A DNA stretch of 64,000 nucleotides, from IMG/VR virus record IMGVR_UViG_3300048598_000131, one strand, 5' to 3'. The position numbers and the translations under genes are program-made. Under the pieces are notes generated by a model. That model did not search any database. It saw nothing but the letters and a program-made list of their open reading frames with translations, and had not been told where the DNA came from. This DNA comes from a virus. Its lineage: Duplodnaviria; Heunggongvirae; Uroviricota; Caudoviricetes. This document shows, piece by piece, positions 8,996 through 44,627 of this stretch (position 1 is its first letter; each line of letters begins with the position of its first letter).

Positions 8996-9326
8996 GCTGC
9001 TTGTTTATTTGTATTTAGCGGTCTCTATCATTTTTGAAATGTGTGGAGATTATTGTGTAAAGATTGCGTCTATAAGCGTAGGTAGTAAATCCAAATTTAT
9101 GTGGATTGTATCGCTCGTAGCTTATAATTTTATGCTTATCGCTTGGATGATTGCAGTAAAGTATGCCAAAGTGATTACGATTCCTGGCACTGTTTGACTT
9201 GTATGCGGTCAGATAGCCGTAATAGTCGTAGGCGTGGGCATACTGCATGAACATGTCACGCTAATACAGCTTGTAGGTCTAGGCTTAGCCGTTGTAGGTT
9301 TGGCACTATTAGGATCAACAAATTAA
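8985..9326 (+). pseudogene. SMR-family (EmrE/SugE-like) small multidrug-resistance transporter interrupted by an in-frame TGA at 9195-9197
   Basis: Residues 1-70 (LAVSIIFEMCGDYCVKIAS ... IPGTV) and the in-frame continuation after the TGA (LVCGQIAVIVVGVGILHEHVTLIQLVGLGLAVVGLALLGSTN) together form a 113-aa, 4-TM protein. Its motifs align with SMR proteins: the TM1 Glu, IP.GTAYA.W.G.GAV, and ILLLGE/LLSLGLIVAG. The stop sits in the same frame. It is a UGA followed by C. Confidence 0.5.
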
Positions 9327-9446
9327 CTTTTATTTTAATTTGATTTAACTTTGTGCCGTGCTATAGTAGCAATGATTTAAGACTAGTCCCGTTTCTTCTA
9401 CTGAGGATTGGCCTTAAAACTTTCATAATAATTAATATAACATATA

Positions 9447-9479
9447 AGCTAGCATAGTTAGAAGCTGTGCTAGCTTTTT
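9447..9479 (+). terminator. hairpin + T-run (intrinsic-terminator-like), repeat copy 1
   Basis: AGCTAGCA tagttagaagctg TGCTAGCT, then TTTT. Confidence 0.5.
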
Positions 9480-9598
9480 AGCGTACGACACGGCTTTAAT
9501 TTGACTTAGCTCTGCGTTGTGATACAGTATCATTGCTTAAGGCTAATCTCAACGCTGTTCGTTGAGGGAGTGGCCTTGAAATTACATATATCATATTT

Positions 9599-9634
9599 AA
9601 GCTAGCATGGTGTAGCAATCATGTTAGCTTTTTA
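9599..9634 (+). terminator. hairpin + T-run, repeat copy 2
   Basis: AAGCTAGCATG gtgtagcaat CATGTTAGCTT, then TTT. One G-U pair in the stem. Confidence 0.5.
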
Positions 9635-9728
9635 GTGTACGACACAAATATAATTTGACATTCACTGCGCTTGCTGTAATTTGTAATCATTAAGACTGCA
9701 AGTCCTCGTTAGTCCTAGGCGATAGTTG

Positions 9729-9762
9729 AGCTAGCATAGATCATAAGCTGTGCTAGCTTTTT
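9729..9762 (+). terminator. hairpin + T-run, repeat copy 3
   Basis: AGCTAGCA tagatcataagctg TGCTAGCT, then TTTT. Confidence 0.5.
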
Positions 9763-9848
9763 AGCGTACGCCTTAGTTTCGATTTGACATTCTGTGCACA
9801 CGTGTTACATTCATTTTACTTTTAAGTAGGCCTGCCGACTAATCCGGT

Positions 9849-9886
9849 AGCTAGCATAGTTATAAGCTGTGCTAGCTTTTTCTTTT
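9849..9886 (+). terminator. hairpin + T-run, repeat copy 4 (immediately 5' of the tRNA)
   Basis: AGCTAGCA tagttataagctg TGCTAGCT, then TTTTCTTTTG. Ends 1 nt before tRNA position 1. Confidence 0.5.
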
Positions 9887-9962
9887 GTCTCTATAGCTCA
9901 AATGGATAGAGCACGAGATTTCTAATCTTGTGATTTTGGTTCGATTCCAAATAGAGACACCA
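9887..9962 (+). tRNA. tRNA-Arg (anticodon UCU), CCA encoded
   Basis: Hand-folded cloverleaf. The acceptor stem GTCTCTA pairs with TAGAGAC. The D-arm is GCTC/GAGC. The anticodon stem CGAGA/TCTTG encloses the loop TTTCTAA, giving anticodon TCT. The T-arm is TTTGG-TTCGATT-CCAAA. ACCA is at the 3' end. Length 76 nt. Confidence 0.9.
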
Positions 9963-9965
9963 TCA

Positions 9966-10010
9966 AATTAAAAATAAATGTTGACTACTGTACAGTCTAT
10001 GCTACTGTGT
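9966..10010 (+). promoter_or_regulatory. sigma70-type promoter motif (AATTAAAAATAAATGTTGACT)
   Basis: TTGACT at 9981-9986 with the conserved upstream element. The -10 is unclear. Confidence 0.4.
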
Positions 10011-10091
10011 ATTCATCACATAGCTCTACCCTATCAGGTGTGATTAAACCCGAGCAACTACGCTCGCAAAATGAGCTTGAAAGGAAATGAA

Positions 10092-12953: not shown

Positions 12954-13823
12954 ATGAAAGACACATTATTTGAACCTGTAGTCGGAATACCAAAGTCATT
13001 TGAACAGTATGCAGAGAAGTTAAAGGGCGAAGATGATTCAAAATCATGCTTTCTTACTTTAGTCTCTGGTGCGAAAGAGCCAGAAGTCTGTAGCTGGGCA
13101 CATGACATGATGAATATGTACAAAGCTTGGTTTGAGAGCCTGGGCATGAAGTGTATTGTGCTGCATACAGCGTGCCTTGATGGTAAGCCAGAGCTTATCG
13201 CACGTGCGACGTTGCTGATAGTGGGTAACTATGCTTATGGCATTGGCAAGTGTGAGACGGGCATTCATCGGTGTAGTCGCTGGACGAAATTTAAGCCGAC
13301 GGCTATGCTGTGTACATGCTTTGTCTCAGTAGAGGTTTTACCGTTTGACGCTATAAGCGTTAAAGACTACGAAGCTGAGTTATTCTATTCTGTAGGTTTC
13401 GACTTTTTGGCTGGATCGTCTACGACGATTATTACTGCGATGCGTGAAGGAGCCGAAGCGAGTGTTACACTTACACCTGCTACTGAAATTAGCGTGATCG
13501 GGGCTTGCGTTAAAAATGACATAGCTGTTCCTAAGACAGAATATAAAGAGTCGGATGTTGCTACAGTTAAGGGAGGCAACTTAGAATCGGATATTATGGT
13601 TGCTATGGTCAAGCACCTGCTTGCCGCGAGATTGAACAACGGAGCGTTTAGCATAGCGTGGGGTAACATTATTCGCAGCTATGTGTTTGCGCCGTATACG
13701 GCGATAAAGGACAGCCGTAATGGCTATGAGACGGCTAACGTGAACGGAGTAGTGAACGGCGATTTAAACGAGTTAGTTGCCTTGTGGTTTGAGCACGGTT
13801 GTCCTAATACCTGCTCAGCATAG
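12954..13823 (+). CDS. hypothetical protein
   Basis: 289-aa ORF with good coding look. No motif recognised. Confidence 0.55.
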   Translation: MKDTLFEPVVGIPKSFEQYAEKLKGEDDSKSCFLTLVSGAKEPEVCSWAHDMMNMYKAWFESLGMKCIVLHTACLDGKPELIARATLLIVGNYAYGIGKCETGIHRCSRWTKFKPTAMLCTCFVSVEVLPFDAISVKDYEAELFYSVGFDFLAGSSTTIITAMREGAEASVTLTPATEISVIGACVKNDIAVPKTEYKESDVATVKGGNLESDIMVAMVKHLLAARLNNGAFSIAWGNIIRSYVFAPYTAIKDSRNGYETANVNGVVNGDLNELVALWFEHGCPNTCSA

Positions 13824-15667: not shown

Positions 15668-15711
15668 TATTTAAATTTAATGTTGACTTTCGGTACACGT
15701 GCATTATCTTA
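15668..15711 (+). promoter_or_regulatory. sigma70-type promoter motif (TTAAATTTAATGTTGACT)
   Basis: TTGACT at 15683-15688. A TATCTT-like -10 lies 16-17 bp downstream. Confidence 0.45.
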
Positions 15712-15723
15712 TCCGTATAACCT

Positions 15724-16158
15724 ATGAGCACGACAAACAATTACTCGGTGGTCCTTATCCCAAAGAAAAATGGGAAATGGACGGTCATCAGCGGACATGG
15801 CAACTATAAAGGTACTTTCAGCAGTGAATTCGCTGCTAGAAGCTACTGCCTTAAAGCCAAGCTCACTCCTATTGATGCCAATAGCACCCTTGGGATGAGC
15901 GCGATCAAGAATTATCGGCACGGTAATGGAAGCCGACGTATGACCGTGGTAACTGTGGATAACACGTCGTACGACGTTACCGTGAAAGGCGACAAGATAG
16001 ACTTTAAGCATTACGCCAAAGGTCCCTATTTGGCTGTAAGCGGCAAGAATAAGGTGTTGGCCGCTGCTCGTAGGGGCGATGACGTTGTTCAGCTTAAGAC
16101 CACTGATTTCTTGGGTGAAACATGGGATGTGAACGAATTAGTAGCCTATTTGGGCTAG
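15724..16158 (+). CDS. hypothetical protein
   Basis: 144-aa ORF. The overlapping minus-strand ORF is judged spurious. Confidence 0.55.
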   Translation: MSTTNNYSVVLIPKKNGKWTVISGHGNYKGTFSSEFAARSYCLKAKLTPIDANSTLGMSAIKNYRHGNGSRRMTVVTVDNTSYDVTVKGDKIDFKHYAKGPYLAVSGKNKVLAAARRGDDVVQLKTTDFLGETWDVNELVAYLG

Positions 16159-16159
16159 T

Positions 16160-16658
16160 GTCTAGCCCTGCTTGCCAGTTTGTTGTGGCGATGGATTGGC
16201 AAGAGCACGCATGCAGAAACATCCCAATGCTGTATGCGTGCATCCTTTCTTGGCTGAACTTGCGATGATTCAGCCAAGATAATATGACACCTGCGCGTAA
16301 TCAGGTTACTCAGTTATTCGCAGGCGTAGTTTAGCAGCGTTGCTGATGTTTAGGATTTGTACATCAGTTGATACGCGCTGACTAAGCCAGTAGTCTTACG
16401 CTGCTGGCTTCATCAATTTGCTGCGGTTTCAGCCTGTGCTCATATGCCGGTGGTCTTCCGGCAACTGAGATCGCAGCGACTATTTTGTGATAGGTCAGTA
16501 GTGTATTATGGTTAATGGTTGGAACTATTAGCTGTGTGCACGCATAGGCAGTATTGGCCTATCACGCTAATTTAGCAGGTTGGTTCGTAGAATAGGGCAC
16601 TGATTGGTGGTAGGTGCTGAAGTGGGGATGACCAACCTGCTATTAAATTTTACTGCGT
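16160..16658. other. about 500-bp ORF-free, GC-richer, hairpin-dense region (candidate structured ncRNA / cis element)
   Basis: No ORF of at least 60 aa on either strand. Multiple inverted repeats: CTTGCCA..TGGCAAG, GGCTGAA..TTCAGCC, GCCAG..CTGGC, and AGCAGGTTGGT..GACCAACCTGCT (11 bp). Confidence 0.35.
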
Positions 16659-16928
16659 ATGTCACATTTTCGATTAGTGTTAATCATCCTGCTGCTAAAA
16701 GTAGTAGGTTTATTTTTAATAGTCGCTGGAGGTTATGCTGCGATTCAGACGGGTTACTGGATAATTTACATGCTTTCTGAAATGAAGTCTGGAGAGCTAT
16801 TCATGAGCATTTTGATTTTAATTTTTAAGCTCTGCTGGATTGTTTCGTCCGAAGTGTGCGCTAACCTGTGCATTGCTCAGTGTCATGCGTATAGTTCAGG
16901 GCTATTGATGATTAACAATACTAAGTAG
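16659..16928 (+). CDS. possible small hydrophobic protein
   Basis: 89-aa ORF that is very hydrophobic. Its odd composition means it could be non-coding. Confidence 0.3.
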   Translation: MSHFRLVLIILLLKVVGLFLIVAGGYAAIQTGYWIIYMLSEMKSGELFMSILILIFKLCWIVSSEVCANLCIAQCHAYSSGLLMINNTK

Positions 16929-16947
16929 CTTTATTTTACGAAATATT

Positions 16948-17130
16948 ATGGCTAGTGAACCTGAGTCAGTGATTATTGGTCAATACTCTGGAGATAATAA
17001 AATCCAGGATTATGCGCGCAGTGCACATGACTGTGCAAAGGCTAGTGCACAAAATCCAGGACTAACTGCAATTGTGGATTATGCAAAGGCTATGAACGAT
17101 TATATGACTTCAGTAAAAAAGCTTACTTAA
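16948..17130 (+). CDS. hypothetical small protein
   Basis: 60-aa ORF. Confidence 0.35.
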   Translation: MASEPESVIIGQYSGDNKIQDYARSAHDCAKASAQNPGLTAIVDYAKAMNDYMTSVKKLT

Positions 17131-25300: not shown

Positions 25301-28159
25301 ATGGCAATCACTAATAACCTTAAAAAGGGTATAGATTTACCGACATGGGAATGGCTTAGATTTCAACCAGCTGTAAGCACAGCAGGCACAGTAATGTGTA
25401 CTTCAGATGACGGATCTGATCGGTACATCTATTACTTGAATACTACTACATTTTATCGTTATGATGCTTGGACTGACGGCTGGCAAACGCTAGCTCCTGC
25501 CATAACAGCCCCATCGACAGCAGCTTCTTTAAAATATACAGTGTATGGAGGATATCGCGGTAACTGCTTAGGTGCCACGTCTAATACAATTACTATTCCT
25601 GGGTTAAAGAATAACGCGCTTTTAGGTTATAAAATTAGAATTTTGTCAGGGACAGGAATGGGGCAGGAAAGAACTATCTCTAGTATAACCGATGCGACTA
25701 TTCAAGATTCAGGCATTATTACTGCGGGTGGCAACACATCTTTAACCGATAGCACTAAGAAATGGGCAATAAATCAATGGGTTGGATATCAAGTGCGCAT
25801 AGTCATGGGCACAGGTCTTTCTCAGATAAGGAAAGTGTTATATAACGATTCAACTAATATATACTGGTATGATGCTAATTACCAGCAGCTTGAACCCTGG
25901 GCCAATACTACGTTACCTACAGCCTTGTCTGCTACAGCTCCAAACCAAGCTCACTACTATATCGAATCATCAATTGCTACTGTTGATTCTAATTGGACAG
26001 TACAACCTGATGCTTCATCTAGCTTTTGCGTGCTAAGCGGTGGCGTTTGGTATCTCACATCGGCTACAACGACTCCTTACGGTATTCTTTTCTTTTATGA
26101 CGTGGTTAGCGATACTTGGACAACTAAAACAGGTATGTTCGGTGTATTGCCAACATCAGCTTTGACACAAGCAGGTTCTCCAGAATTTCCATTAGAGCGA
26201 ACAGGTGAAGTAGGGGGTGCGTATCTAACAGGCACAGCGACCGCAGCAAGCAATACTGACAGGTCTTTGACTGATTCGTCTAAGGCATTAACCGTGGGAA
26301 TGTACAATAACTATCAAATTCGTATCACAGGAGGTACAGGAATTGGGCAAAGGCGCAGGATAGTTACGTCTACAGCGGATATGTTCTATATTGAATATCC
26401 GTGGGATATCGTTCCAGATACTACTTCAACCTATTCTATTTTTGCGAATGTTGATAATATCTACGTAATGGGTGGATCGAATGGTTCTACTATTTTTAAT
26501 TACTCAGTAGAAAAGGATTTATGGACTTATGGACATGTCATAGATTGTGGCACTGTTACTACCTTTTCTGCGGCTTATGCGGGGCAAGAACCGTTCGGAC
26601 TATCTTCAGGAACACGTAATGCGGGAGGAATTTACACCGTAAATGCAACACCAGTTGCAGCAGGTTCAGGCTATGTTGTAGGAGACCTATTGACATTAAC
26701 TACTGGGGGTTCAAATGGTACTGTTAGAGTTACAGGCATATCAGGACTTGGGGCAATCACATCTGTATCATTATACCGTTGCGGATCTGGTTATTCAACA
26801 GGAACATCAGCAACTTCTGGCGGAACAGGTTCTAGCGCGACAATCAGTATTACAGCGGTTGGTTATACAGGATATCTAACAACAGTCGTAAATCACAATC
26901 TATGTGTGGGAGATTCTGTTGTCATAACGGGTAGTAATGAAACAAATTGGAATAGCACATTCACTCTTATTGGTTGTAACTCTCTTACAACTTTCGAGAT
27001 AGCAATACCTTCGTCTACAGGTTCTGCCGGTCCTAGTACGAATATTACTAGCACAACTATTACTGATTCAACAGCAAGTTGGGCAACGAATGAACTTGCA
27101 GGCTGTATTTGTATGCTTCAGGCACCTGGCACAACGCCAGCCACAGTTTATCAGCGCAGAATTGCAAGTAATGCAGCAACATATCTCACGTTTACCACAA
27201 CAATGGCGTCAAATCCTGTTAGTGGCACTTGGCGTTATGCAATTACGAGGCAATGGGGACTAGGGTCTGACACTCAATATAAGACTGCTAATCAAAGTAA
27301 TACAGGGTTTGCTACAAGTGGAACAACGACTACATTGGTAGATTCTTCAAAAGCTTGGAAAGCAGGTCAATGGCTTGGTTATAAATTAATCGTGGTGTCT
27401 GGCACAGGCTGGGGAACAGGTGAAATAACTATTAATAGTAATTCAACTAATTCTTTAGTTTTTTCTACTCAAACTTTTACACCGGATGCAACTACACGAT
27501 ACATTATTGCAGACGGCTTTGGAACAGCTTCTGCCACAGGTACAACCACAACTTTAATAGATAGCTCTAAAAACTGGATTACCAATCAATGGGCTGGACA
27601 GCAGGTGCGAATGCTCTCTGGAACAGGAGCTGCGCAGTTTTCAACAATTCAAAGCAATACCGCGACAACTTTAACATTTACTGCTGTAACAACAGCACCT
27701 GTGGCCGACACACAATACATGATTCAAGGAGTGCTCCCAAGAGGTGCTGGTTGCAGTAATCAATGGGCCTTTGGCGGGACTGATGCAACTAAAGCAGGTA
27801 AATATCTTTATAGTGCTAGAGGTGGCGGTACTACAGGGTTTGATCGTTATGATATTACGACTAACTTATGGGATATAAACTTATCCGCTTTACCATTAAG
27901 CGAAACGCTCAATACTGGAACAATGGTAGCATATGATGGAGTGAACCGTATTTATTTCACAGTTAATGCCACTGGTCGTGTGCTCTATGTCGATTTGACT
28001 ACGCTAAAGATAGGCTCATTGAGCACAACACCATTTGCTCAGGGCACAGCGCTAACCGGTAATAAAATGGAAATAATTACTACTCCTGATGGCTTGAACT
28101 ATTTGTATGTTATGAGACATACAGGTCAGGAATTCTTCCGAACTCTTATTTTCCTATGA
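25301..28159 (+). CDS. large internally repeated protein (952 aa), probable structural/fibre-like protein
   Basis: At least 5 copies of a roughly 35-aa module T/I-DS-x-K-x-W-x-x-N-Q/E-W/L-x-G-Y/Q-x-x-R-I/M-x-x-G-T-G. Examples: TDSTKKWAINQWVGYQVRIVMGTG, TDSSKALTVGMYNNYQIRITGGTG, VDSSKAWKAGQWLGYKLIVVSGTG, IDSSKNWITNQWAGQQVRMLSGTG. Confidence 0.65.
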   Translation: MAITNNLKKGIDLPTWEWLRFQPAVSTAGTVMCTSDDGSDRYIYYLNTTTFYRYDAWTDGWQTLAPAITAPSTAASLKYTVYGGYRGNCLGATSNTITIPGLKNNALLGYKIRILSGTGMGQERTISSITDATIQDSGIITAGGNTSLTDSTKKWAINQWVGYQVRIVMGTGLSQIRKVLYNDSTNIYWYDANYQQLEPWANTTLPTALSATAPNQAHYYIESSIATVDSNWTVQPDASSSFCVLSGGVWYLTSATTTPYGILFFYDVVSDTWTTKTGMFGVLPTSALTQAGSPEFPLERTGEVGGAYLTGTATAASNTDRSLTDSSKALTVGMYNNYQIRITGGTGIGQRRRIVTSTADMFYIEYPWDIVPDTTSTYSIFANVDNIYVMGGSNGSTIFNYSVEKDLWTYGHVIDCGTVTTFSAAYAGQEPFGLSSGTRNAGGIYTVNATPVAAGSGYVVGDLLTLTTGGSNGTVRVTGISGLGAITSVSLYRCGSGYSTGTSATSGGTGSSATISITAVGYTGYLTTVVNHNLCVGDSVVITGSNETNWNSTFTLIGCNSLTTFEIAIPSSTGSAGPSTNITSTTITDSTASWATNELAGCICMLQAPGTTPATVYQRRIASNAATYLTFTTTMASNPVSGTWRYAITRQWGLGSDTQYKTANQSNTGFATSGTTTTLVDSSKAWKAGQWLGYKLIVVSGTGWGTGEITINSNSTNSLVFSTQTFTPDATTRYIIADGFGTASATGTTTTLIDSSKNWITNQWAGQQVRMLSGTGAAQFSTIQSNTATTLTFTAVTTAPVADTQYMIQGVLPRGAGCSNQWAFGGTDATKAGKYLYSARGGGTTGFDRYDITTNLWDINLSALPLSETLNTGTMVAYDGVNRIYFTVNATGRVLYVDLTTLKIGSLSTTPFAQGTALTGNKMEIITTPDGLNYLYVMRHTGQEFFRTLIFL

Positions 28160-28314
28160 GCATCGATGAACTAGTTCAGATACTAACTAATGAATTAACT
28201 GATCTAATTAACAGGCAACAACTTGCGTTACAACTTGGCGATGTTGATGCCTATACCGAACTAGAGCAAAAGATCGCAGATACTAAGGTTAGTCTGAACA
28301 AACTAAAAAGTTGA
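28156..28314 (+). CDS. possible small coiled-coil protein (52 aa) translationally coupled to the 952-aa gene
   Basis: ATGA start/stop overlap at 28156-28159. Reads MSIDELVQILTNELTDLINRQQLALQLGDVDAYTELEQKIADTKVSLNKLKS. Below the ORF-track size cutoff. Confidence 0.35.
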   Translation: MSIDELVQILTNELTDLINRQQLALQLGDVDAYTELEQKIADTKVSLNKLKS

Positions 28315-28360
28315 TTTATACTAACCGTATAAGGCTTACATCTGATTTTAGCGCGGAAGT

Positions 28361-28400
28361 AAAATTAAATGTTTACAATGGCTAAAATCAAGTGTAAGCT
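28361..28400 (+). promoter_or_regulatory. sigma70-type promoter motif (AAAATTAAATGTTTACA ... TAAGCT)
   Basis: TTTACA at 28372-28377 and TAAGCT at 28395-28400 (17-bp spacer). Confidence 0.4.
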
Positions 28401-28433
28401 CATTTTGTGTACAAATATAGCGTTCTCTAAACT

Positions 28434-29506: not shown

Positions 29507-29728
29507 TAACTATGGAATTCTTGTTCGAATACCACATAGACATGTTGCTATTAACGCCTTCAGTGCGACTTGTGCGTGGTACGTGCACAAATCCGGCGTG
29601 TAAGGCTAATCACTATATGTTGGAAATTGGATGGTTCTTTTGGACGATAGGCTTAGCGCGGTAGCGCTATACCAATTTATATCATGTTATAACCACTTTT
29701 GGATATAACCTGATATAAATGATTATAA

Positions 29729-35028: not shown

Positions 35029-35309
35029 AGATCGATAATGTGCACACTGATGATGCAGGTAGGTTAGTCGTGAACTATATTGTTAGTCATTCTACTCCTG
35101 GAAGAGAAGGTACAACTGTGTCTGAACCAATGACACTAACCTGTGCTAATAGAGGCAGCGGCGAATGGACGTGCAGCATGAAAATAGAAGACGCTACTGG
35201 TGATACGCCGCAAGCTGTATTGCTCAAGCTTCAATCTTGGCTTGAGCGCTTAAGCATTGCGCTAAAAGATAGCGAGAAGGCTACTGTGACACTGCCAGGT
35301 AGATTTTAG
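35007..35309 (+). CDS. hypothetical protein
   Basis: 100-aa ORF. Confidence 0.45.
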   Translation: MERIAMLKIDNVHTDDAGRLVVNYIVSHSTPGREGTTVSEPMTLTCANRGSGEWTCSMKIEDATGDTPQAVLLKLQSWLERLSIALKDSEKATVTLPGRF

Positions 35310-36439
35310 GCCTTGATGACGTCAATCTTGAGTGTTTTGTCTGCCTTTTCGACACTTAATTCATACTTTGTTCCACTGAGTGTGCAGCCAATAGCAGTGA
35401 GCAATCCTGTGATTTCAGCGATCTTTTCAGCGCTTTGAACTAAGCAATCATAGTGGCCGTAGGGTGAATCATAGTCATCGCTTACTTTGTAGTAATGAAG
35501 CATGTCACCCTTAATCGCAACATTGCCTACCTCAGTGACAGTTATGCTCTTATTACTGACAGAGCGTGCGCGAATGGTAATCTCAGGATTATCAAGTTTA
35601 CCCTCTGTGAATCCAGTGATTGGTCGGGCAAGGAGCAGAGTTAACTTCAAAATTAATCCATTTTTTGCTTCTAAAGCCTTTTCAGCTTCTGTCGGCTGAA
35701 TTGCGATACCAATCCATTCAAATCGATATCCAGGCTTTTCGTTGAAAGCGTCCAGATCATCAATAGCATCGGCAGACAGATAGTATTCAGCGGTATGGCG
35801 TAGCTGGACGTAGTTGATATCTTTAACCCTGTGAGTAGAACCATCGGGCATCTCTTTGCTCTTGCAAACAAAGCGCTTGATGGGGCAGTCTGGACGTATC
35901 TTGTAGCCGTATTTTTGAGCCTCCGTAGCTGCCATTTCAACCGTCATCTCAGGCATGCTCGCCGCAGCAGGTAATTTAGGTGCAGCTTGTTTCGGCGCAG
36001 CCTGCTGGTTTACGATGGCATTGGCTTTAGCAGCTGTCTCAGCGTCAGGAGCCATCCAGCACTTGTTATCCGAATTCCAGCGGCATCCAAGGGCTTTCAG
36101 CCTGTCTTTCACAGGATAGGTATTTCCGGTGATCGGTACCTGCTGTGCACGCTTTTGTGCGAATGCTGCGTCAGCAGCTGTGGCCGCATCAAGATCTGCT
36201 TGATTTGGATTGCTTAAGCCAGCAATCAGTTGTCGAATAGACCGGTCCCCAGTGACAGTCCATCGAGGATCATTTTCGCCGTTGCCTGATCTAGCCCAAA
36301 ATTTTCCACCATGCTTTTTGATGATTTCTCGATACTTACGCGTATCACCTCTGATTACAGCAGTAGGCCTGGTGTAATCAGTTAAAATTTTCACAACTAA
36401 TTCTGCCGGTAATTTCTGTGTTTTATATTCGGCGCTCAT
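35306..36439 (-). CDS. hypothetical protein (377 aa), minus strand
   Basis: Long minus-strand ORF. Its own conserved promoter motif lies upstream on the minus strand. Confidence 0.6.
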   Translation of the reverse strand: MSAEYKTQKLPAELVVKILTDYTRPTAVIRGDTRKYREIIKKHGGKFWARSGNGENDPRWTVTGDRSIRQLIAGLSNPNQADLDAATAADAAFAQKRAQQVPITGNTYPVKDRLKALGCRWNSDNKCWMAPDAETAAKANAIVNQQAAPKQAAPKLPAAASMPEMTVEMAATEAQKYGYKIRPDCPIKRFVCKSKEMPDGSTHRVKDINYVQLRHTAEYYLSADAIDDLDAFNEKPGYRFEWIGIAIQPTEAEKALEAKNGLILKLTLLLARPITGFTEGKLDNPEITIRARSVSNKSITVTEVGNVAIKGDMLHYYKVSDDYDSPYGHYDCLVQSAEKIAEITGLLTAIGCTLSGTKYELSVEKADKTLKIDVIKA

Positions 36440-36444
36440 GTTTG

Positions 36445-36485
36445 TACTATGGCATACTTTAACTATTCGTCAACATTAAATTTTA
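36445..36485 (-). promoter_or_regulatory. sigma70-type promoter on minus strand (reverse complement of AAAATAAAATTTAATGTTGACG)
   Basis: On the plus strand, GTCAACATTAAATTTTATTTT at 36468-36489. Drives the minus-strand gene that starts at 36439. Confidence 0.45.
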
Positions 36486-36571
36486 TTTTGTTTTGTAAGT
36501 TGACAAATAGGCTATGAGTTGTAGGTTAAACGCTGTTAATTCCATAGTTGTTTTAGTTGTTTAATCGTGTA

Positions 36572-36600
36572 AACAGCGTACTATTTAGTACGCTGTTTTT
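36572..36600 (+). terminator. rho-independent terminator-like hairpin
   Basis: AACAGCGTAC tattta GTACGCTGTT, then TTT. Confidence 0.5.
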
Positions 36601-36604
36601 GTTA

Positions 36605-36643
36605 AAATTAAAAGTTGACATAGCGCTATTAAGCTTTTAATTT
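36605..36643 (+). promoter_or_regulatory. sigma70-type promoter (AAAATTAAAAGTTGACA ... TAATTT)
   Basis: TTGACA at 36615-36620 and TAATTT at 36638-36643 (17-bp spacer). Confidence 0.45.
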
Positions 36644-36736
36644 AATACATGTCCTTCTTTTTAAAAATCTTTTCAAAAAGGCACAAGAAGAAGCGACAGC
36701 CTTCGCTACCCACAGAATCACAGAATAGACACATAT

Positions 36737-37204
36737 GTGTATACTGTGAGTATAAGAAGAAACCATTTTGTGACTGTAGTTTGTGTCAAAAATGTAATGA
36801 GTAGTATGGCTAAGACAAAAAAATCAGTGCATCAAGCACACCAAATAAATCATGTAAATCAAGTAAAGCGAGTCCAACCCACGAAAGGCCCGTACACGCG
36901 CAGTGATTGTGCAGTAAAAGGTCCAAAGGGCGAGCCAATAATTTATTGCTCTTCTTGTTGGGGTACTCATACTTTTCAAGATCCAGAGCGGGGGCAGGAA
37001 AGCTGCACAGATTACAGTGTAAACGATGATGAGGCCAGAGCAAATGCTGACTTTATTGTTAAAGCCTGCAACAATTACGAAGTGATGCGTGATCTCTTGG
37101 ACAAGGCTTCAGCACAGCTATTTAAGATAGCAACATCTTCAGAGGAGAATGAATTGGCTCTTAATATCGCTGCTCTTCTGCACAAGCTTGAAATTACGGG
37201 CTAA
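36737..37204 (+). CDS. hypothetical Cys-containing protein
   Basis: 155-aa ORF. Alternative in-frame starts at 36797 and 36806. Confidence 0.45.
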   Translation: MYTVSIRRNHFVTVVCVKNVMSSMAKTKKSVHQAHQINHVNQVKRVQPTKGPYTRSDCAVKGPKGEPIIYCSSCWGTHTFQDPERGQESCTDYSVNDDEARANADFIVKACNNYEVMRDLLDKASAQLFKIATSSEENELALNIAALLHKLEITG

Positions 37205-41098: not shown

Positions 41099-43495
41099 TT
41101 GATGTTTGCGAGTAATGCCTACTATCAGTACGTTGATGCACACGGGCGCCTAATCTTTGTATCTGGCGGAAGTCTCATAGACAAAGGGGATTGGACGGCC
41201 TTGTCAGATTATGCGTACGGAAATGTAGTAGCTTACTCAGATAATCTTTATGTTGCTTTAGGGACAATTAGTGCACCTGGATCAACACCGGCGGCTTTAA
41301 CCTACGGTTACACAGATAATCCACTGTGGGCTGAGCTAACGTTAAAGATGGTGAGTGTTCCATCCACAGGTGGAACTACGGTTACACCGCCTACTACAGC
41401 TGTTAGTAGCTTAGATACGGGAGCTGTCTATCAGATTGTAAATGGCTATGGAATATCGAAGTACATATCTGGTAGTAATGTAACACTAAAGGGACCTTGG
41501 GACACTACGGTATCTTACATTGTAAATGACGCTGTAATTTACAACGGTGTTATTCTTGTGTGCGTAGTTCCTGTATCTCCTCCACAGACTTATCCTTATT
41601 TAGGCGTCTATGGCACAGGTAACTTTACTTATTGGTCTTATCTTACATTGACTAGCTACACTAGCTCGTCAGTGCTAGTAACCGGGTACACTGCTTATCA
41701 GAGCCAAGTTGTACTAGGTGGTCCTACTGGTCCAACAGGCTATACAGGCTACACAGGTTCATCTGGTGATCAGGGTTCGACGGGTTTTACCGGCTATACA
41801 GGATATACGGGTCCATTGGGATTCACAGGTTACACAGGCTATACTGGACCTTTTGGCTTGGGTGACACAGGATATACAGGATACACTGGAACTACGGGAC
41901 CTCAGGGCATACCTGGAATTCAAGGCTCAACCGGTTATACAGGTTACACAGGACCACAAGGTCAAGATTCTACAGTAACGGGTTATACGGGATTTACAGG
42001 CTACACGGGTTCTCCAGGAACTAATGGAATTCAAGGTTCAACCGGTTATACAGGGTACACCGGTCCTACTGGACCTGGAAATTTTACAGGTTACACTGGC
42101 TATACAGGCGTTTCTGGATCACAGGGATCCACAGGTTACACAGGATTTACAGGTCCACAGGGAAACCAAGGTAATCAAGGTTTAATCGGTTACACTGGAT
42201 TTACAGGATATACTGGAAGTCAAGGTGGAGTAGGCAGCACAGGCTACACTGGCTATCAAGGTCCTACAGGATACACTGGTTATACTGGTCCACAAGGTAT
42301 TCAGGGTGTAACAGGGTATACCGGCTACACAGGATATACCGGAAGAACGGGTTACACAGGGTACACCGGACCTACAGGCGTTACAGGATACACAGGGTAC
42401 ACTGGACCGTCTGGAAGTAACGGTAGTCAAGGGACTACCGGTTATACAGGTTACACTGGAAATCAAGGATCCACGGGCTATACAGGATATACTGGTCCAA
42501 CAGGAACTGCTTCGAATGTAACGGGTTACACTGGATATACCGGTCCGCAGGGATCATCCTATACGGGTTACACAGGATATACTGGTGGATTAGGGAGCAC
42601 AGGACAGACCGGTTACACCGGTTATACTGGCCCGGCAGGACTAGCATCCACTGTAACTGGATACACTGGCTATACGGGACCTTCAGGCAGCAATGGAAGT
42701 CAGGGCACTACCGGTTATACGGGATATTCAGGTTCATCAGGCACTACGGGATATACAGGCTACACCGGTCCTTCAGGAAGTAACGGTAGTCAAGGTTCAA
42801 CAGGCTACACAGGTTACACAGGACCTGCTGTAACAGGCTATACCGGTTTTACAGGTCCAGCTTCTACAGTAACAGGATATACTGGCTACACGGGATATAC
42901 CGGTAGGACAGGTTATACAGGATACACTGGTCCACAAGGACAAACAGGATATACGGGTTATACTGGTCCAACGGGTGCTGCTTCTACTATTACAGGATAC
43001 ACTGGATACACGGGCTACACAGGTTCGTCTGGAGCTGCATCTACGATTACTGGTTATACAGGTTACACTGGGCCTTCAGGTAGTAACGGAAGCCAGGGCA
43101 ACACAGGATATACGGGTTATACAGGATACGCGTCAACAGTTACGGGTTATACCGGTTACACAGGCCCACAAGGATTAGCCTCTACAATAACAGGGTATAC
43201 CGGTTATACCGGTTCTCAAGGTGGCATAGGTTCTACGGGATATACAGGTTACACAGGTTCATCTGGTAATACTGGTTCATCCGGTTCAACTGGTTACACA
43301 GGGTACACAGGATATACAGGACCACAAGGGATAGCTTCCACCATAACTGGATACACAGGATACACCGGAATATCAGGTTCAACTGGCTATACTGGCTATA
43401 CAGGTCCTCAGGGTCCAACCGGTCCAAGCGGCTCAGGCGGATCAGGCGACGTAACAGCAGCCTATGTGGCTGCGATTGCAATTGCACTAGGATAA
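41099..43495 (+). CDS. collagen-like triple-helix-repeat protein (Gly-Tyr-Thr triplets), fibre protein 1
   Basis: About 200-aa N-terminal non-repeat domain (..[16 protein letters not shown]..). Then about 600 aa of uninterrupted G-X-Y triplets, dominated by [20 protein letters not shown]. Confidence 0.75.
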
Positions 43496-43499
43496 ATCT

Positions 43500-44627
43500 A
43501 TGAATTACGACGGAGCTACTGGCTACACAGGTTATACAGGTTACACTGGCCCTTCAGGAGGACCGGCAGGACCTCGCGGAGTAGACGGTCCAACAGGTTA
43601 CACTGGCTACACAGGTCCACAAGGCGCTACAGGTCCAGGTTATACGGGGCCTCAAGGAGCCATGGGGCTAAAAGGCACTACGGGCTATACGGGCTATACT
43701 GGTGCATCTGGCTCGGACGGCAGAAGCTATACAGGTCCTCAAGGCGTCCAAGGAGGGACTGGCTATACAGGTTATACAGGATACACTGGATCAACTGGAT
43801 CAACAGGTCCAGGCTATACAGGTCCACAGGGACCAGCCGGATTAAAAGGAAGCACTGGTTACACTGGCTATACCGGCGCAGCAGGCAGAGATGGTGCTAG
43901 CTATACAGGTTACACAGGACCTCAAGGCCTAAGGGGATTTACAGGCTATACGGGTTACACTGGAGTAGGCGGCGTCACCGGTTACACAGGCTACACAGGT
44001 CCAATGGGAATTATGGGGAGTAGAGGATACACTGGCCCTCAGGGCGATACCGGCTACACCGGTTATACTGGCTATACTGGAAGTAGAGGGCTGTCCGTGA
44101 CTGGCTACACTGGCTATACAGGTCCTAGTGGCACAGTAGGCACGACAGGCTCACAAGGCACTACGGGCTATACCGGCTACACAGGTTCAGCCTCTACAGT
44201 CACTGGCTATACGGGTTACACAGGCCCGCAGGGCATAATAGGCAAGGGTGGTAGTCAAGGTCCTGTCGGTTATACTGGATACACTGGTTATACCGGCCAA
44301 TCTGGTGACATGGGTCCACGTGGATTTACAGGATATACCGGTTACACTGGTCCTAAGGGACCAGCAGGTGGTGGAATACGCGGTGTAAGCGGCGTTATTG
44401 ATTTGGACACGTCTTCTGTATCGGGCAGCTTCAGCGTAGCCGTTGATTTTAGCACATTAACGTCTGTAGTGCTTACAGTAGCACGGCCACATGGATCTTC
44501 GGTTATTTATGCCAATCTGGATAGCTCTGCCACGTATTATAGTAATGGTTCTATCGTCGTAGGCTACGATCTAAGCGCACTTCCAGCAACAGATGCCTAT
44601 CGTCTGCATTATGTGATTTTAGCTTAA
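43500..44627 (+). CDS. collagen-like triple-helix-repeat protein, fibre protein 2
   Basis: G-X-Y triplets for about 290 aa. The C-terminal roughly 85-aa non-collagen domain is [12 protein letters not shown]...YRLHYVILA. Starts 4 nt after the previous collagen-like gene. Confidence 0.75.

What the first reader, a model, noticed from the sequence alone, without database searches (positions are those of the whole stretch)
16160..16658. About 500-bp ORF-free, GC-richer, hairpin-dense island in otherwise wall-to-wall coding DNA
Everywhere else intergenic gaps are 3-100 bp. This gap contains no ORF of at least 60 aa on either strand. It has local GC well above the flanks and several long-range inverted repeats: CTTGCCA/TGGCAAG, GGCTGAA/TTCAGCC, GCCAG/CTGGC, and an 11-bp pair AGCAGGTTGGT/ACCAACCTGCT about 50 nt apart. 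It could be a structured non-coding RNA, a replication origin or packaging site, or a self-splicing or mobile RNA remnant. It is followed by a short, very hydrophobic ORF (16659..16928) of doubtful coding status.
Basis: seen in the sequence. Interest (0 to 1): 0.55.

Follow-up and report, generated by a model that had tools for sequence, protein, structure and literature searches.

The report
Orphan hairpin-chain RNA in a phage
A 500-base gene-free stretch in an uncultured phage folds, on the gene-sense strand, into an exceptionally stable chain of about ten RNA hairpins that matches no known RNA family; it is probably a new phage non-coding RNA, but it has no relatives or expression data, so its function is only inferred.

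Summary
The gap is real: 16159-16658 has no ORF of at least 60 aa and no coding signal in any of the six phases. All frames carry mixed TAA/TAG/TGA stops, so it is not a recoded gene.

It folds far better than chance. The + strand RNA has an MFE of -209.9 kcal/mol against -160.7 +/- 6.2 for shuffles (z = -8). It holds the four lowest-energy 160-nt windows of 799 in the window.

The hairpin density is specific to the + strand and depends on G.U pairs:
- + strand with G.U allowed: seven uninterrupted stems of 11-15 bp, the top of all windows.
- - strand: three stems.
- Watson-Crick only: two stems.

This points to an RNA rather than DNA cruciforms. There is no Rfam match, tRNA or tmRNA, internal repeat, DnaA box or sigma70-like promoter. 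A terminator-like hairpin follows at 16688-16718.

The phage is a singleton. Flanking proteins have no homologues, and distant relatives (tape-measure protein 38-46% identical) are not syntenic, so covariation cannot be tested.

Best reading: an orphan, read-through-transcribed, nuclease-resistant structured non-coding RNA. A cis-acting operon-boundary element is the main rival.

The parts
16152..16718 (+). Proposed extent of the structured non-coding RNA module: the hairpin chain plus the terminator-like 3' end.
   Evidence: Fold of 16159-16725 gives -226.4 kcal/mol, 185 pairs (81 GC, 75 AU, 29 GU), 65% of bases paired, and mean pair probability 0.81-0.91. z = -7.95. The RNA ends are inferred, not mapped.
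16152..16168 (+). H0: a 7-bp hairpin, GGGCTAG-TGT-CTAGCCC, spanning the stop codon (16156-16158) of the upstream gene.
   Evidence: inverted repeat I24, 100% complementary.
16171..16203 (+). H1: 15 uninterrupted pairs, 5 of them G.U, with a 3-nt loop.
16205..16241 (+). H2: a 12-bp stem, GCACGCAUGCAG/CUGUAUGCGUGC. The apical part carries CAUCCCA.
   Evidence: (I8).
16248..16279 (+). H3: an 11-12-bp stem, UCUUGGCUGAA/UUCAGCCAAGA, with a loop of about 10 nt.
   Evidence: (I2). This is one of only two perfect Watson-Crick stems of at least 8 bp in the gap.
16287..16327 (+). H4: an interrupted hairpin, CCUGCG...CGCAGG, with an inner helix.
   Evidence: (I9).
16328..16383 (+). H5: a compound hairpin with an inner 8-bp stem, CUGAUGU.../...ACAUCAG (16342-16368), and an 11-nt loop, UUAGGAUUUGU.
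16384..16410 (+). H6: an 11-bp hairpin, AAGCCAGUAGU-CUUAC-GCUGCUGGCUU.
   Evidence: (I7).
16418..16479 (+). H7: a 15-bp basal stem, a 12-nt internal loop containing GUGCUCAU, and an apical 6-bp stem, GCCGG(U)/CCGGC, with a 7-nt loop.
   Evidence: (I10, I12).
16486..16566 (+). H8: an 81-nt extended hairpin with a 15-bp basal stem and a 12-bp G.U-rich apical stem. It contains the palindrome GTGCAC.
   Evidence: (I4, I22).
16573..16642 (+). H9: a perfect 12-13-bp basal stem, UAGCAGGUUGGU/ACCAACCUGCUA, enclosing a 44-46-nt apical domain.
   Evidence: (I6).
16688..16718 (+). Intrinsic-terminator-like hairpin, CCUGCUGCU-AAA-AGUAGUAGG, followed by UUUAUUUUUA. It lies inside codons 10-20 of the hydrophobic ORF.
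   Evidence: It is the only + strand terminator-like site between 12.3 and 19.9 kb. It is a consensus match only; function is untested.
16659..16928 (+). 89-aa ORF with two predicted hydrophobic segments. It is probably a real small membrane protein whose start lies 17 nt after H9, in an unpaired A/U-rich linker.
   Evidence: Translation. Coding score is the lowest of 16 ORFs but phase-specific. No Pfam, PHROG or phage tblastn match. Its start is unpaired in the fold.
15724..16158 (+). Upstream 144-aa ORFan gene, which gives the context. The RNA would be made by read-through from this transcription unit.
   Evidence: Positive in-frame coding score. It has no homologue apart from itself. The nearest + strand promoter-like site is 15683-15710.

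Best explanation
The gap encodes a roughly 0.5-kb structured non-coding RNA on the + strand, the same sense as all flanking genes.

Proposed mechanism:
1. It has no recognisable promoter of its own, so it is made as part of the rightward polycistronic transcript that also carries gene 15724-16158.
2. As it emerges it folds locally into at least nine consecutive long hairpins. Seven have uninterrupted stems of 11-15 bp with many G.U pairs, and the linkers between hairpins are only 1-8 nt.
3. The transcript ends, at least partly, at the terminator-like hairpin at 16688-16718.
4. About two thirds of its bases are paired and almost no single-stranded entry sites are left. The RNA should therefore resist RNase E and exonucleases, outlive the flanking mRNA and accumulate as a discrete stable RNA.
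5. It then acts through its helices and loops, as a binding platform or decoy for a host or phage factor. This would resemble the abundant ORF-less large RNAs seen in other lytic phages.

Shown here: it is non-coding; its stability is exceptional; the + strand is preferred; there is no own sigma70-type promoter; a terminator-like end follows.

Inferred: that it is transcribed, that it accumulates, and that it acts in trans.
For: - No ORF and no coding signal in six phases, while all neighbours score as coding.
- + strand RNA has an MFE of -209.9 against -160.7 +/- 6.2 kcal/mol, z = -7.95.
- The four lowest energies of 799 windows are in the gap.
- Energy density is -0.42 kcal/mol/nt, against -0.16 to -0.34 for the nine other ORF-free gaps. 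It is also the GC-richest of them.
- Strand and RNA specificity:
  - The - strand folds 49 kcal/mol worse.
  - There are 29 G.U pairs against a single A.C 1x1 mismatch in the MFE fold.
  - With G.U allowed on the + strand: 7 stems totalling 92 bp, the top of all windows. Window mean is 25 +/- 14, and 0 of 1000 shuffles reach 92.
  - On the - strand: 3 stems totalling 33 bp, not the top of the window. With Watson-Crick pairs only: 2 stems.
- No sigma70-like promoter in the gap, and a terminator-like site directly downstream.
- Precedent:
  - ICP1's most abundant transcript is an ~800-nt RNA from an ORF-less ~1-kb gap (PMC7567579).
  - Phage K has two lncRNAs (PMC9241854).
  - Duplex structure protects RNA from RNase E during cyanophage infection (PMC3113571).
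Against: - There are no expression data of any kind.
- There are no homologues, so there is no covariation support.
- As DNA, both strands also fold significantly (z = -6.5 each), because the Watson-Crick cores are shared.
- The G.U: A.C excess in ungapped stems (20:6) is only modestly above the ~2:1 expected from G+T-rich composition.
- A bead-like chain of simple hairpins, with no GNRA or UNCG tetraloops among the predicted loops (seen by eye in the, 36 folds), is unlike the multi-junction architecture of known large functional RNAs. It fits a cis-acting mRNA element equally well.
- No promoter of its own was found, although the scan covers only sigma70-type promoters.
- The terminator-like hairpin lies inside a probably real ORF.
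Confidence: 0.45

Rival explanations
1. Cis-acting mRNA element at an operon boundary. The hairpin chain and terminator form a long structured untranslated spacer inside the polycistronic transcript.

It would protect the upstream early mRNAs from 3'-to-5' decay and from RNase E. It would also attenuate or time read-through into the hydrophobic ORF and the genes beyond it.

Possible alternative pairing: UUUAGCAG (16330 and 16571) against CUGCUAAA (16692-16699), which lies in the terminator's 5' arm.
For: - No own promoter, and same sense as the flanking genes.
- The only + strand terminator-like site in 7.6 kb lies 46 nt after H9.
- A chain of simple hairpins is typical of processing and stability elements.
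- UUUAGCAG occurs twice at hairpin feet, and its exact complement sits in the terminator arm (D6, I16, I20).
- The 3' arm of H9 and the 5' arm of the terminator are 80% identical over 15 nt (D3).
Against: - Known stabiliser and attenuator elements are one or two hairpins, not 500 nt, and that is a large cost in a tightly packed phage genome.
- The competing antiterminator pairings (8-9 bp) are much weaker than the perfect 12-bp H9 stem that would have to open.
- The start codon of the downstream ORF is unpaired and so not gated.
- None of the other nine ORF-free gaps in this phage uses such an element.
Confidence: 0.3
2. DNA-level cis site: a replication origin, packaging site, or injection-stop or pause site that uses extruded hairpins, as proposed for the untranslated repeat regions of phage T5.
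For: - Both strands fold significantly with DNA parameters (z = -6.5).
- T5's essential iss site lies in a gene-free region rich in inverted repeats and palindromes (bioRxiv 10.1101/866236).
Against: - With Watson-Crick pairs only, the gap has just 2 stems of at least 8 bp and is not the densest region.
- Its exceptional status needs G.U (G.T in DNA) pairs on one strand.
- No direct or tandem repeats or iterons.
- No DnaA box in the gap.
- The gap is GC-richer, not AT-rich.
- Cumulative GC skew rises smoothly through it.
- None of the 41 window proteins scanned against PHROGs or Pfam, including the gap's neighbours, matched a terminase or replication-initiator family.
Confidence: 0.08
3. Functionless relic: a decayed mobile element (MITE, REP or BOX-like), a degenerate intron, or a dead gene whose hairpins are left over or incidental.
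For: - It is a singleton with no conservation evidence.
- It sits in a hypervariable ORFan-rich region where insertions are common.
Against: - z = -8 and seven uninterrupted 11-15-bp stems are not expected from a decaying sequence.
- No terminal inverted repeats of note, and no second copy in the window.
- Two gap segments gave no extended match in 185,579 reference genomes.
- No intron or ribozyme model matches at E <= 10.
- Coding-potential traces are absent in all phases.
Confidence: 0.12
4. Hidden protein coding: small peptides under 60 aa, or a gene read with a non-standard code. The phage carries an RF2-like gene.
For: - An RF2-like protein lies 2.3 kb upstream.
- Short ORFs of 36-58 aa exist in and across the gap.
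Against: - All six frames have mixed TAA, TAG and TGA stops, 9-15 each.
- Coding scores are negative and phase-independent.
- The rest of the window is read normally with code 11.
Confidence: 0.03

Closest known systems
Orphan large non-coding RNAs of lytic phages: the ICP1 ~800-nt RNA between gp139 and gp140, and the two phage K lncRNAs
   Same: - Arises from an ORF-less gap of about 0.5-1 kb in an otherwise tightly packed lytic-phage genome.
- Belongs to no curated RNA family.
- Function is unknown (PMC7567579, PMC9241854).
   Different: Those RNAs were discovered by RNA-seq as very abundant transcripts. Here, expression is only inferred. No sequence similarity could be tested beyond the negative blastn search against 50,697 phage records.
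Ornate large bacterial and phage RNAs: GOLLD, ROOL, OLE, HEARO, raiA
   Same: - Size class of about 0.5 kb or more.
- Occurs in a phage.
- Structure is strong relative to the flanks.
- GC is richer than in other intergenic DNA.
   Different: - No covariance-model match, even at E <= 10.
- Not adjacent to a tRNA; the only tRNA is 6.2 kb away.
- The predicted architecture is a linear chain of long simple hairpins, not multi-way junctions and pseudoknots.
Phage T5 untranslated repeat regions and injection stop signal (iss)
   Same: A gene-free, stop-codon-rich stretch in the early part of a phage genome, full of inverted repeats and palindromes (bioRxiv 10.1101/866236).
   Different: T5 iss is defined by nested direct repeats, paired DnaA boxes and a distant inverted copy. 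None of these is present here. The signal here is strand-specific and depends on G.U pairs.
Intercistronic processing and stability hairpins of phage mRNAs (T7 early RNase III sites, lambda sib); named from general knowledge, not tested here
   Same: - Long, near-perfect stems lying between genes on a polycistronic sense transcript.
- Would protect 3' ends and define transcript boundaries.
   Different: Those are single hairpins of about 40-60 nt per junction. Here, ten sit in tandem with no genes between them.
Type I toxin-antitoxin mRNAs (hok/sok-like); named from general knowledge
   Same: A long, highly structured untranslated RNA upstream of a small hydrophobic membrane ORF.
   Different: - The ORF is 89 aa, larger than typical type I toxins.
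- Its start codon is not sequestered.
- No family match.
- No antisense RNA gene was demonstrated; only weak - strand promoter-like sites lie downstream.

Membership tests
Any Rfam 15 family (4227 covariance models) | Covariance-model score at or above the family's gathering threshold. | tested here: not met
   The whole-window gathering scan found only tRNA-Arg at 9887. In 15900-17000 at E <= 10 there were only three sub-threshold chance hits, at 15-18 bits against thresholds of 52-140.
GOLLD / ROOL / OLE / HEARO / raiA large RNAs | Match to the family model. | tested here: not met
   No hit to any of these models at E <= 10.
GOLLD / ROOL large RNAs | Frequent location next to tRNA genes in phage or prophage genomes. 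| tested here: not met
   The only tRNA in the 64 kb lies 6.2 kb upstream.
Group I intron | Conserved P3-P9 catalytic core (model match), and interruption of a recognisable host gene. | tested here: not met
   No intron model hit. The upstream ORF ends at a normal stop, and neither flanking ORF has homologues that would indicate a split gene.
Group II intron | Domain V/VI model match, and usually an RT/maturase ORF. | tested here: not met
   No model hit. No ORF in the gap. No RT domain in the neighbours that were scanned.
tRNA / tmRNA / tRNA-like array | Cloverleaf detected by ARAGORN at default stringency. | tested here: not met
   Zero genes at default settings. Only junk calls appeared at 50-70% thresholds.
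CRISPR array or repeat-RNA antitoxin (ToxI-like) | Tandem or interspaced direct repeats. | tested here: not met
   No tandem repeats. No direct-repeat family longer than 16 nt with two imperfect copies. Self-blast is empty.
T5-type injection stop signal | Nested direct repeats, paired DnaA boxes and a distant inverted copy, all within the terminal repeat. | tested here: not met
   No direct repeats. No DnaA box in the gap. No second copy in the window. Position relative to the genome ends is not testable.
Iteron or DnaA-type replication origin | Iterons, an AT-rich unwinding element, and often a skew inflection. | tested here: not met
   No iterons. GC is 0.47, above the window mean of 0.425. 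Cumulative GC skew is monotonic.
Retron / DGR non-coding RNA | An adjacent reverse transcriptase; for DGR, a template repeat matching a variable repeat. | tested here: not met
   No RT domain among the proteins scanned. No part of the gap repeats elsewhere in the window beyond 14-nt chance matches.
MITE / REP / BOX-type repeated hairpin element | Multiple copies in the same or the host genome. | tested here: not met
   Single copy in the window. The 22-mer scan of reference genomes found nothing. The 94 hits of the hairpin-pattern scan share only the hairpin itself, at most 36 nt. This is a limited test: exact patterns from two segments only.
Orphan phage lncRNA (ICP1 or phage K type; a descriptive class, not a homology family) | An ORF-less gap of about 0.3-1 kb in a phage genome. 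| tested here: met
   500 bp that is ORF-free and non-coding by composition.
Orphan phage lncRNA (ICP1 or phage K type) | A discrete, abundant transcript in infected cells. | not testable with these tools
   No transcriptome data are available, and the source contig is not in the searchable DNA collections.
Type I toxin-antitoxin (hok-like) | A small hydrophobic toxin ORF, with translation blocked by the mRNA fold and by an antisense RNA. | tested here: inconclusive
   A hydrophobic 89-aa ORF is present, but its start is unpaired. Only weak - strand promoter-like sites lie downstream, at 17037 and 17287.

The most novel reading that the evidence does not exclude
This is the first sighting of a new class of phage-encoded ~0.5-kb 'hairpin-chain' RNA that accumulates during infection and acts in trans. 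One possibility is a duplex-rich decoy or sponge for a host nuclease or an RNA-sensing defence protein. Another is a self-associating scaffold: the apical part of H8 carries a GUGCAC palindrome, and the CAUCCC in the H2 loop is complementary to the GGGAUG in the H9 internal loop.
Probability: 0.22. Interest if true: 0.65.

Novelty: new variant of a known kind. Interest (0 to 1): 0.42.

Why it matters
Large non-coding RNAs are repeatedly found to be among the most abundant transcripts of lytic phages, yet almost none has a known function. A half-kilobase RNA made almost entirely of long helices would be a structurally simple and experimentally tractable example. It can be synthesised, probed, and tested for nuclease resistance, for protein partners and for effects on read-through.

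If it acts in trans, it could reveal an RNA-based host-takeover or anti-defence strategy. If it acts in cis, it shows how a phage without Shine-Dalgarno-led genes insulates neighbouring gene modules.

As it stands, it is one uncorroborated locus in one uncultured phage, so the practical value is as a candidate, not a discovery.

Tried and rejected
1. Recoded or frameshifted gene: rejected, on stop types in six frames and Markov coding scores.
2. Known RNA families: none. Relaxed ARAGORN gave only junk.
3. DNA-level relatives of the gap:
   - blastn against 50,697 phage records and 72,556 plasmids: none.
   - Three gap 18-19-mers in IMG/VR: two found nothing, and one found contig L001. L001 was a chance match, with no blastn or tblastx similarity beyond it.
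   - A 24-mer in JGI metagenomes: none, so even the source contig is not in that collection.
   - Two patterns in reference genomes: none, or hairpin-only matches.
4. Synteny anchors:
   - IMG/VR scans with four neighbouring proteins (the 144-aa, 90-aa, 666-aa and 289-aa products): nothing.
   - In the protein collections, the 144-aa and 666-aa proteins match only themselves. Exhaustive HMMER found only weak hits to repeat proteins.
   - Exact look-ups of encoding contigs failed.
   - The RF2-like protein hits only cellular RF2s.
   - The AAA ATPase gives only generic-domain hits.
5. Tape-measure anchor: 21 loci at 38-46% identity, plus Pam2.
   - Synteny stops one gene upstream of the tape-measure gene.
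   - No blastn or nhmmer similarity to the gap in 342 kb.
   - No comparably folding ORF-free gap; the best is -0.28 against -0.42 kcal/mol/nt.
6. Paralogues or internal repeats: none.
7. DnaA boxes: none in the gap.
8. CsrB-like GGA-loop sponge: I counted only 4 GGA in 500 nt by eye in the sequence, which is no enrichment.
9. Loop-to-start-codon antisense targeting: the best duplex is -14.6 kcal/mol, to the start of gene 15724. That is within the shuffled-loop null, whose minimum is -14.8.
10. A covariance model was not built. With a single sequence and no candidate homologues, it could add nothing.
Full report
CONTEXT

The window is part of a very divergent tailed phage. Nearly all genes are on the + strand. 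Recognisable genes:
- Collagen-like tail fibres at 41099-43495, 43500-44627 and 48828-57011.
- A tape-measure-type protein at 25301-28159, about 40% identical to that of Pseudanabaena phage Pam2.
- An AAA ATPase, a thymidylate synthase and methyltransferases.
- One tRNA-Arg.

The genes around the finding, 13.9-20.2 kb, are small ORFans. None of the 46 gene starts inspected has a Shine-Dalgarno sequence; the leaders are A/U-rich. The host is therefore probably an SD-independent lineage such as Cyanobacteria or Bacteroidota.

Yes for the core claim.
- The stretch with no ORF of at least 60 aa on either strand is exactly 16159-16658.
- Each of the six frames has 9-15 stops of mixed type. Stop-codon recoding or a single frameshift therefore cannot rescue a gene, which mattered because an RF2-like gene lies nearby.
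- A frame-specific second-order Markov model trained on 28 long genes of this window scores the gap at -0.065 to -0.085 nat/nt in all six phases, with no phase preference. All 15 neighbouring small ORFs score +0.011 to +0.064 in frame and strongly negative out of frame.

Three supporting statements were overstated.
- Other gaps are not all 3-100 bp. An 816-bp ORF-free stretch lies at 9255-10070, and five more of 189-297 bp exist.
- GC (0.472) is only +1.2 SD above the window mean and equals that of the upstream gene. It is, however, the GC-richest of the ten ORF-free gaps.
- The repeats are local hairpins, not long-range pairings.

IS IT MORE THAN CHANCE?

Clearly.
- As + strand RNA, the 502 nt fold at -209.9 kcal/mol, against -160.7 +/- 6.2 for dinucleotide shuffles (z = -7.95).
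- In a scan of 799 overlapping 160-nt windows, the four lowest energies of the whole 64 kb are all inside the gap. Every window across it has z between -4.7 and -5.5.
- Energy density is -0.42 kcal/mol/nt, against -0.16 to -0.34 in the other nine ORF-free gaps. Those gaps are AT-rich promoter/terminator spacers.

The fold is a chain of local hairpins: H0 at 16152-16168, then H1 to H9 between 16171 and 16642.
- Linkers are 1-8 nt.
- 65% of bases are paired.
- Mean pair probabilities are 0.8-0.9.

RNA OR DNA, AND WHICH STRAND?

The - strand RNA folds 49 kcal/mol worse. With DNA parameters, both strands fold equally well (z = -6.5).

A model-free count settles most of this question. I counted uninterrupted stems of at least 9 bp with loops of 3-60 nt (for the Watson-Crick-only count, at least 8 bp with loops of 3-40 nt).

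| Pairing rule | Stems in the gap | Summed bp | Standing in the window |
|---|---|---|---|
| G.U allowed on + strand | 7 (15, 12, 11, 11, 15, 15, 13 bp) | 92 | Highest; mean 25 +/- 14; 0 of 1000 shuffles reach 92 |
| G.U allowed on - strand | 3 | 33 | Not the top |
| Watson-Crick only | 2 | - | Unremarkable |

The exceptional hairpin density therefore exists only for a + strand RNA, which is also the sense of every flanking gene.

One caveat applies. In strictly ungapped stems, the G.U: A.C ratio is 20:6, against about 2:1 expected from the G+T-rich composition. That single measure is only suggestive.

WHAT IT IS NOT

- No Rfam family matches, either at gathering thresholds or at E <= 10.
- There is no tRNA or tmRNA.
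- There are no tandem or direct repeats, so it is not a CRISPR array, a ToxI-like repeat RNA or an iteron set.
- There are no DnaA boxes.
- No piece of the gap recurs in the window, so it is not a DGR template and not a repeated element.
- T5's injection-stop region was the best DNA-level analogue I could find. It is defined by nested direct repeats, paired DnaA boxes and a distant inverted copy (bioRxiv 10.1101/866236). None of these is present.
- There is no sigma70-like promoter in the gap on either strand. Promoter-like hits in the region are at chance frequency.
- The only + strand terminator-like site between 12.3 and 19.9 kb is CCUGCUGCU-AAA-AGUAGUAGG plus UUUAUUUUUA at 16688-16718. It lies 46 nt after H9, inside the hydrophobic ORF.

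COMPARATIVE EVIDENCE: NONE OBTAINABLE

- The flanking 144-aa and 666-aa proteins match only themselves among 5.8 billion clusters. An exhaustive HMMER search of 1.84 billion representatives gave only weak repeat-protein hits.
- The source is a single 99,354-bp JGI contig that is not in the searchable DNA collections.
- DNA searches of phage and plasmid records found nothing. Exact-pattern scans of IMG/VR, JGI metagenomes and reference genomes gave nothing or chance hits.
- The tape-measure gene retrieved 21 loci at 38-46% identity, but they do not help:
  - Synteny ends one gene upstream of it.
  - None shares sequence with the gap.
  - None has a comparably folding ORF-free island.

Covariation, which is the decisive test, therefore cannot be run.

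MECHANISM

Best-supported reading (confidence 0.45): a roughly 0.5-kb + strand non-coding RNA.
- It is made by read-through from the upstream genes.
- It folds co-transcriptionally into a chain of long helices.
- It ends, at least partly, at the 16688 terminator.
- It has almost no single-stranded segments, so it should resist RNase E and exonucleases and accumulate. Duplex formation is known to protect RNA from RNase E in cyanophage infection (PMC3113571).
- Abundant ORF-less large RNAs of unknown function are documented in ICP1 and phage K (PMC7567579, PMC9241854).

That it acts in trans is an inference from two things: its size, and the cost of 500 nt in a compact genome.

Main rival (0.30): a cis-acting operon-boundary element that stabilises upstream mRNA and attenuates read-through.
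- This fits the absence of a promoter, the terminator and the simple hairpin architecture.
- It also fits the UUUAGCAG / CUGCUAAA complementarity between two hairpin feet and the terminator arm.
- Against it: such elements are normally one hairpin, the competing pairings are weak, and the downstream start codon is not sequestered.

Lesser rivals:
- A DNA-level site (0.08).
- A functionless relic (0.12).
- Hidden coding (0.03).

THE HYDROPHOBIC ORF

The ORF at 16659-16928 encodes 89 aa with two hydrophobic segments.
- It has the weakest coding score of the 16 small ORFs, but a clear phase preference.
- Its start is A/U-rich like the other gene starts.
- It abuts the next gene.
- It has no family or phage match.

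I treat it as probably real. The terminator-like hairpin then lies within its codons 10-20.

VERDICT

This is a real, statistically robust, + strand-specific structured non-coding island that belongs to no known family. It is best filed as an orphan phage large ncRNA candidate, a new variant of a known kind. Interest is moderate (0.42). The structure signal is strong, but there is a single instance, no expression data, no conservation evidence and no demonstrated function.

Noticed in passing
window 9255-10070: This 816-bp ORF-free stretch is an ordered array.
- A terminator hairpin, AGCTAGCAT(A/G)G...CTGTGCTAGCTTTTT, is repeated four times (about 9447, 9600, 9731 and 9850).
- These copies are interleaved with three TTTGAC(A/T)-type promoters (about 9493, 9654 and 9783). 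The promoters would drive transcripts of about 65-100 nt that end at the next terminator.
- tRNA-Arg(tct) follows at 9887-9962, then a further promoter before gene 10071.
- The + strand folds at z = -5.8, against -2.1 for the - strand.
It looks like an early-promoter cluster with two or three candidate small RNAs, reminiscent of the promoter-stem-loop cassettes of T4-type phages (that comparison is from my own knowledge).
   Followed up: partly
window 12954-13823: A phage-encoded RF2-like protein of 289 aa, about 31% identical to cellular release factor 2.
- Only the PCRF domain is detected by Pfam.
- The translation contains no GGQ or SPF motif (it reads 'VKGGNLES').
- It may therefore be a non-catalytic release-factor mimic.
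- No sign of stop-codon recoding was seen in this window.
   Followed up: partly
window, all gene starts (e.g. 1003 to 61956); promoter at 9654-9683: None of the 46 gene starts inspected has a Shine-Dalgarno sequence; all leaders are A/U-rich. One promoter reads TTTG-N19-TAATTTG, which fits the Bacteroidota -33/-7 consensus as well as TTGACA-type spacing. The host is probably an SD-independent lineage (Bacteroidota or Cyanobacteria) and remains undetermined.
   Followed up: partly
window 16437-16444 versus 15724-15731: The exposed internal loop of H7, GUGCUCAU, is perfectly complementary to AUGAGCAC, the start codon region of the adjacent upstream gene (duplex -14.6 kcal/mol). It is the best of all loop-to-start-site pairings, but it lies within the shuffled-loop null (minimum -14.8), so it is not significant.
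   Followed up: yes
window 16330-16338, 16571-16578, 16691-16699: UUUAGCAG occurs at the 5' feet of H5 and H9. Its exact complement, (G)CUGCUAAA, forms the 5' arm and loop of the terminator-like hairpin. In addition, the 3' arm of H9 and the 5' arm of the terminator are 80% identical over 15 nt. This is a possible antiterminator topology. It is untested and energetically unfavourable.
   Followed up: no
window 16219-16225, 16621-16630, 16533-16541: CAUCCC in the H2 loop is complementary to GGGAUG in the H9 internal loop, a possible contact between the 5' and 3' parts of the RNA. The apical part of H8 carries the self-complementary GUGCAC, a kissing-dimer type palindrome. Both could easily be chance.
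   Followed up: no
window 36200-36740: The divergent intergenic region between the - strand gene 35306-36439 and the + strand gene 36737-37204 is the other hairpin-rich spot. It has 7 stems on the + strand and 6 on the - strand, with z = -4.4 and -4.5. It is AT-rich (GC 0.31) with terminator-like hairpins, and is probably a bidirectional terminator/promoter region.
   Followed up: no
window 28160-28433 and 29589-29728: Two further small ORF-free gaps after the tape-measure gene fold strongly. The window 28241-28400 has z = -6.2, and 29589-29728 has z = -5.9 on the + strand. They contain long A/U-rich perfect hairpins and are probably terminators.
   Followed up: no
window 48828-57011 and 57023-61003: A 2727-aa collagen-repeat fibre protein has a C-terminal S74 intramolecular-chaperone domain. 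It is followed by a 1326-aa protein that combines glycosyltransferase-like and DNA-methyltransferase-like regions.
   Followed up: no
L024-L117 (reference genomes): The hairpin pattern AAGCCAGTAG-N4-9-CTGCTGGCTT occurs 94 times in reference genomes, against about 6-7 expected by chance by my own estimate. Many hits are in Vibrio and Photobacterium. Similarity to the gap never extends beyond the hairpin (at most 36 nt). These are generic AAGCC...GGCTT terminator-type hairpins, not relatives.
   Followed up: yes
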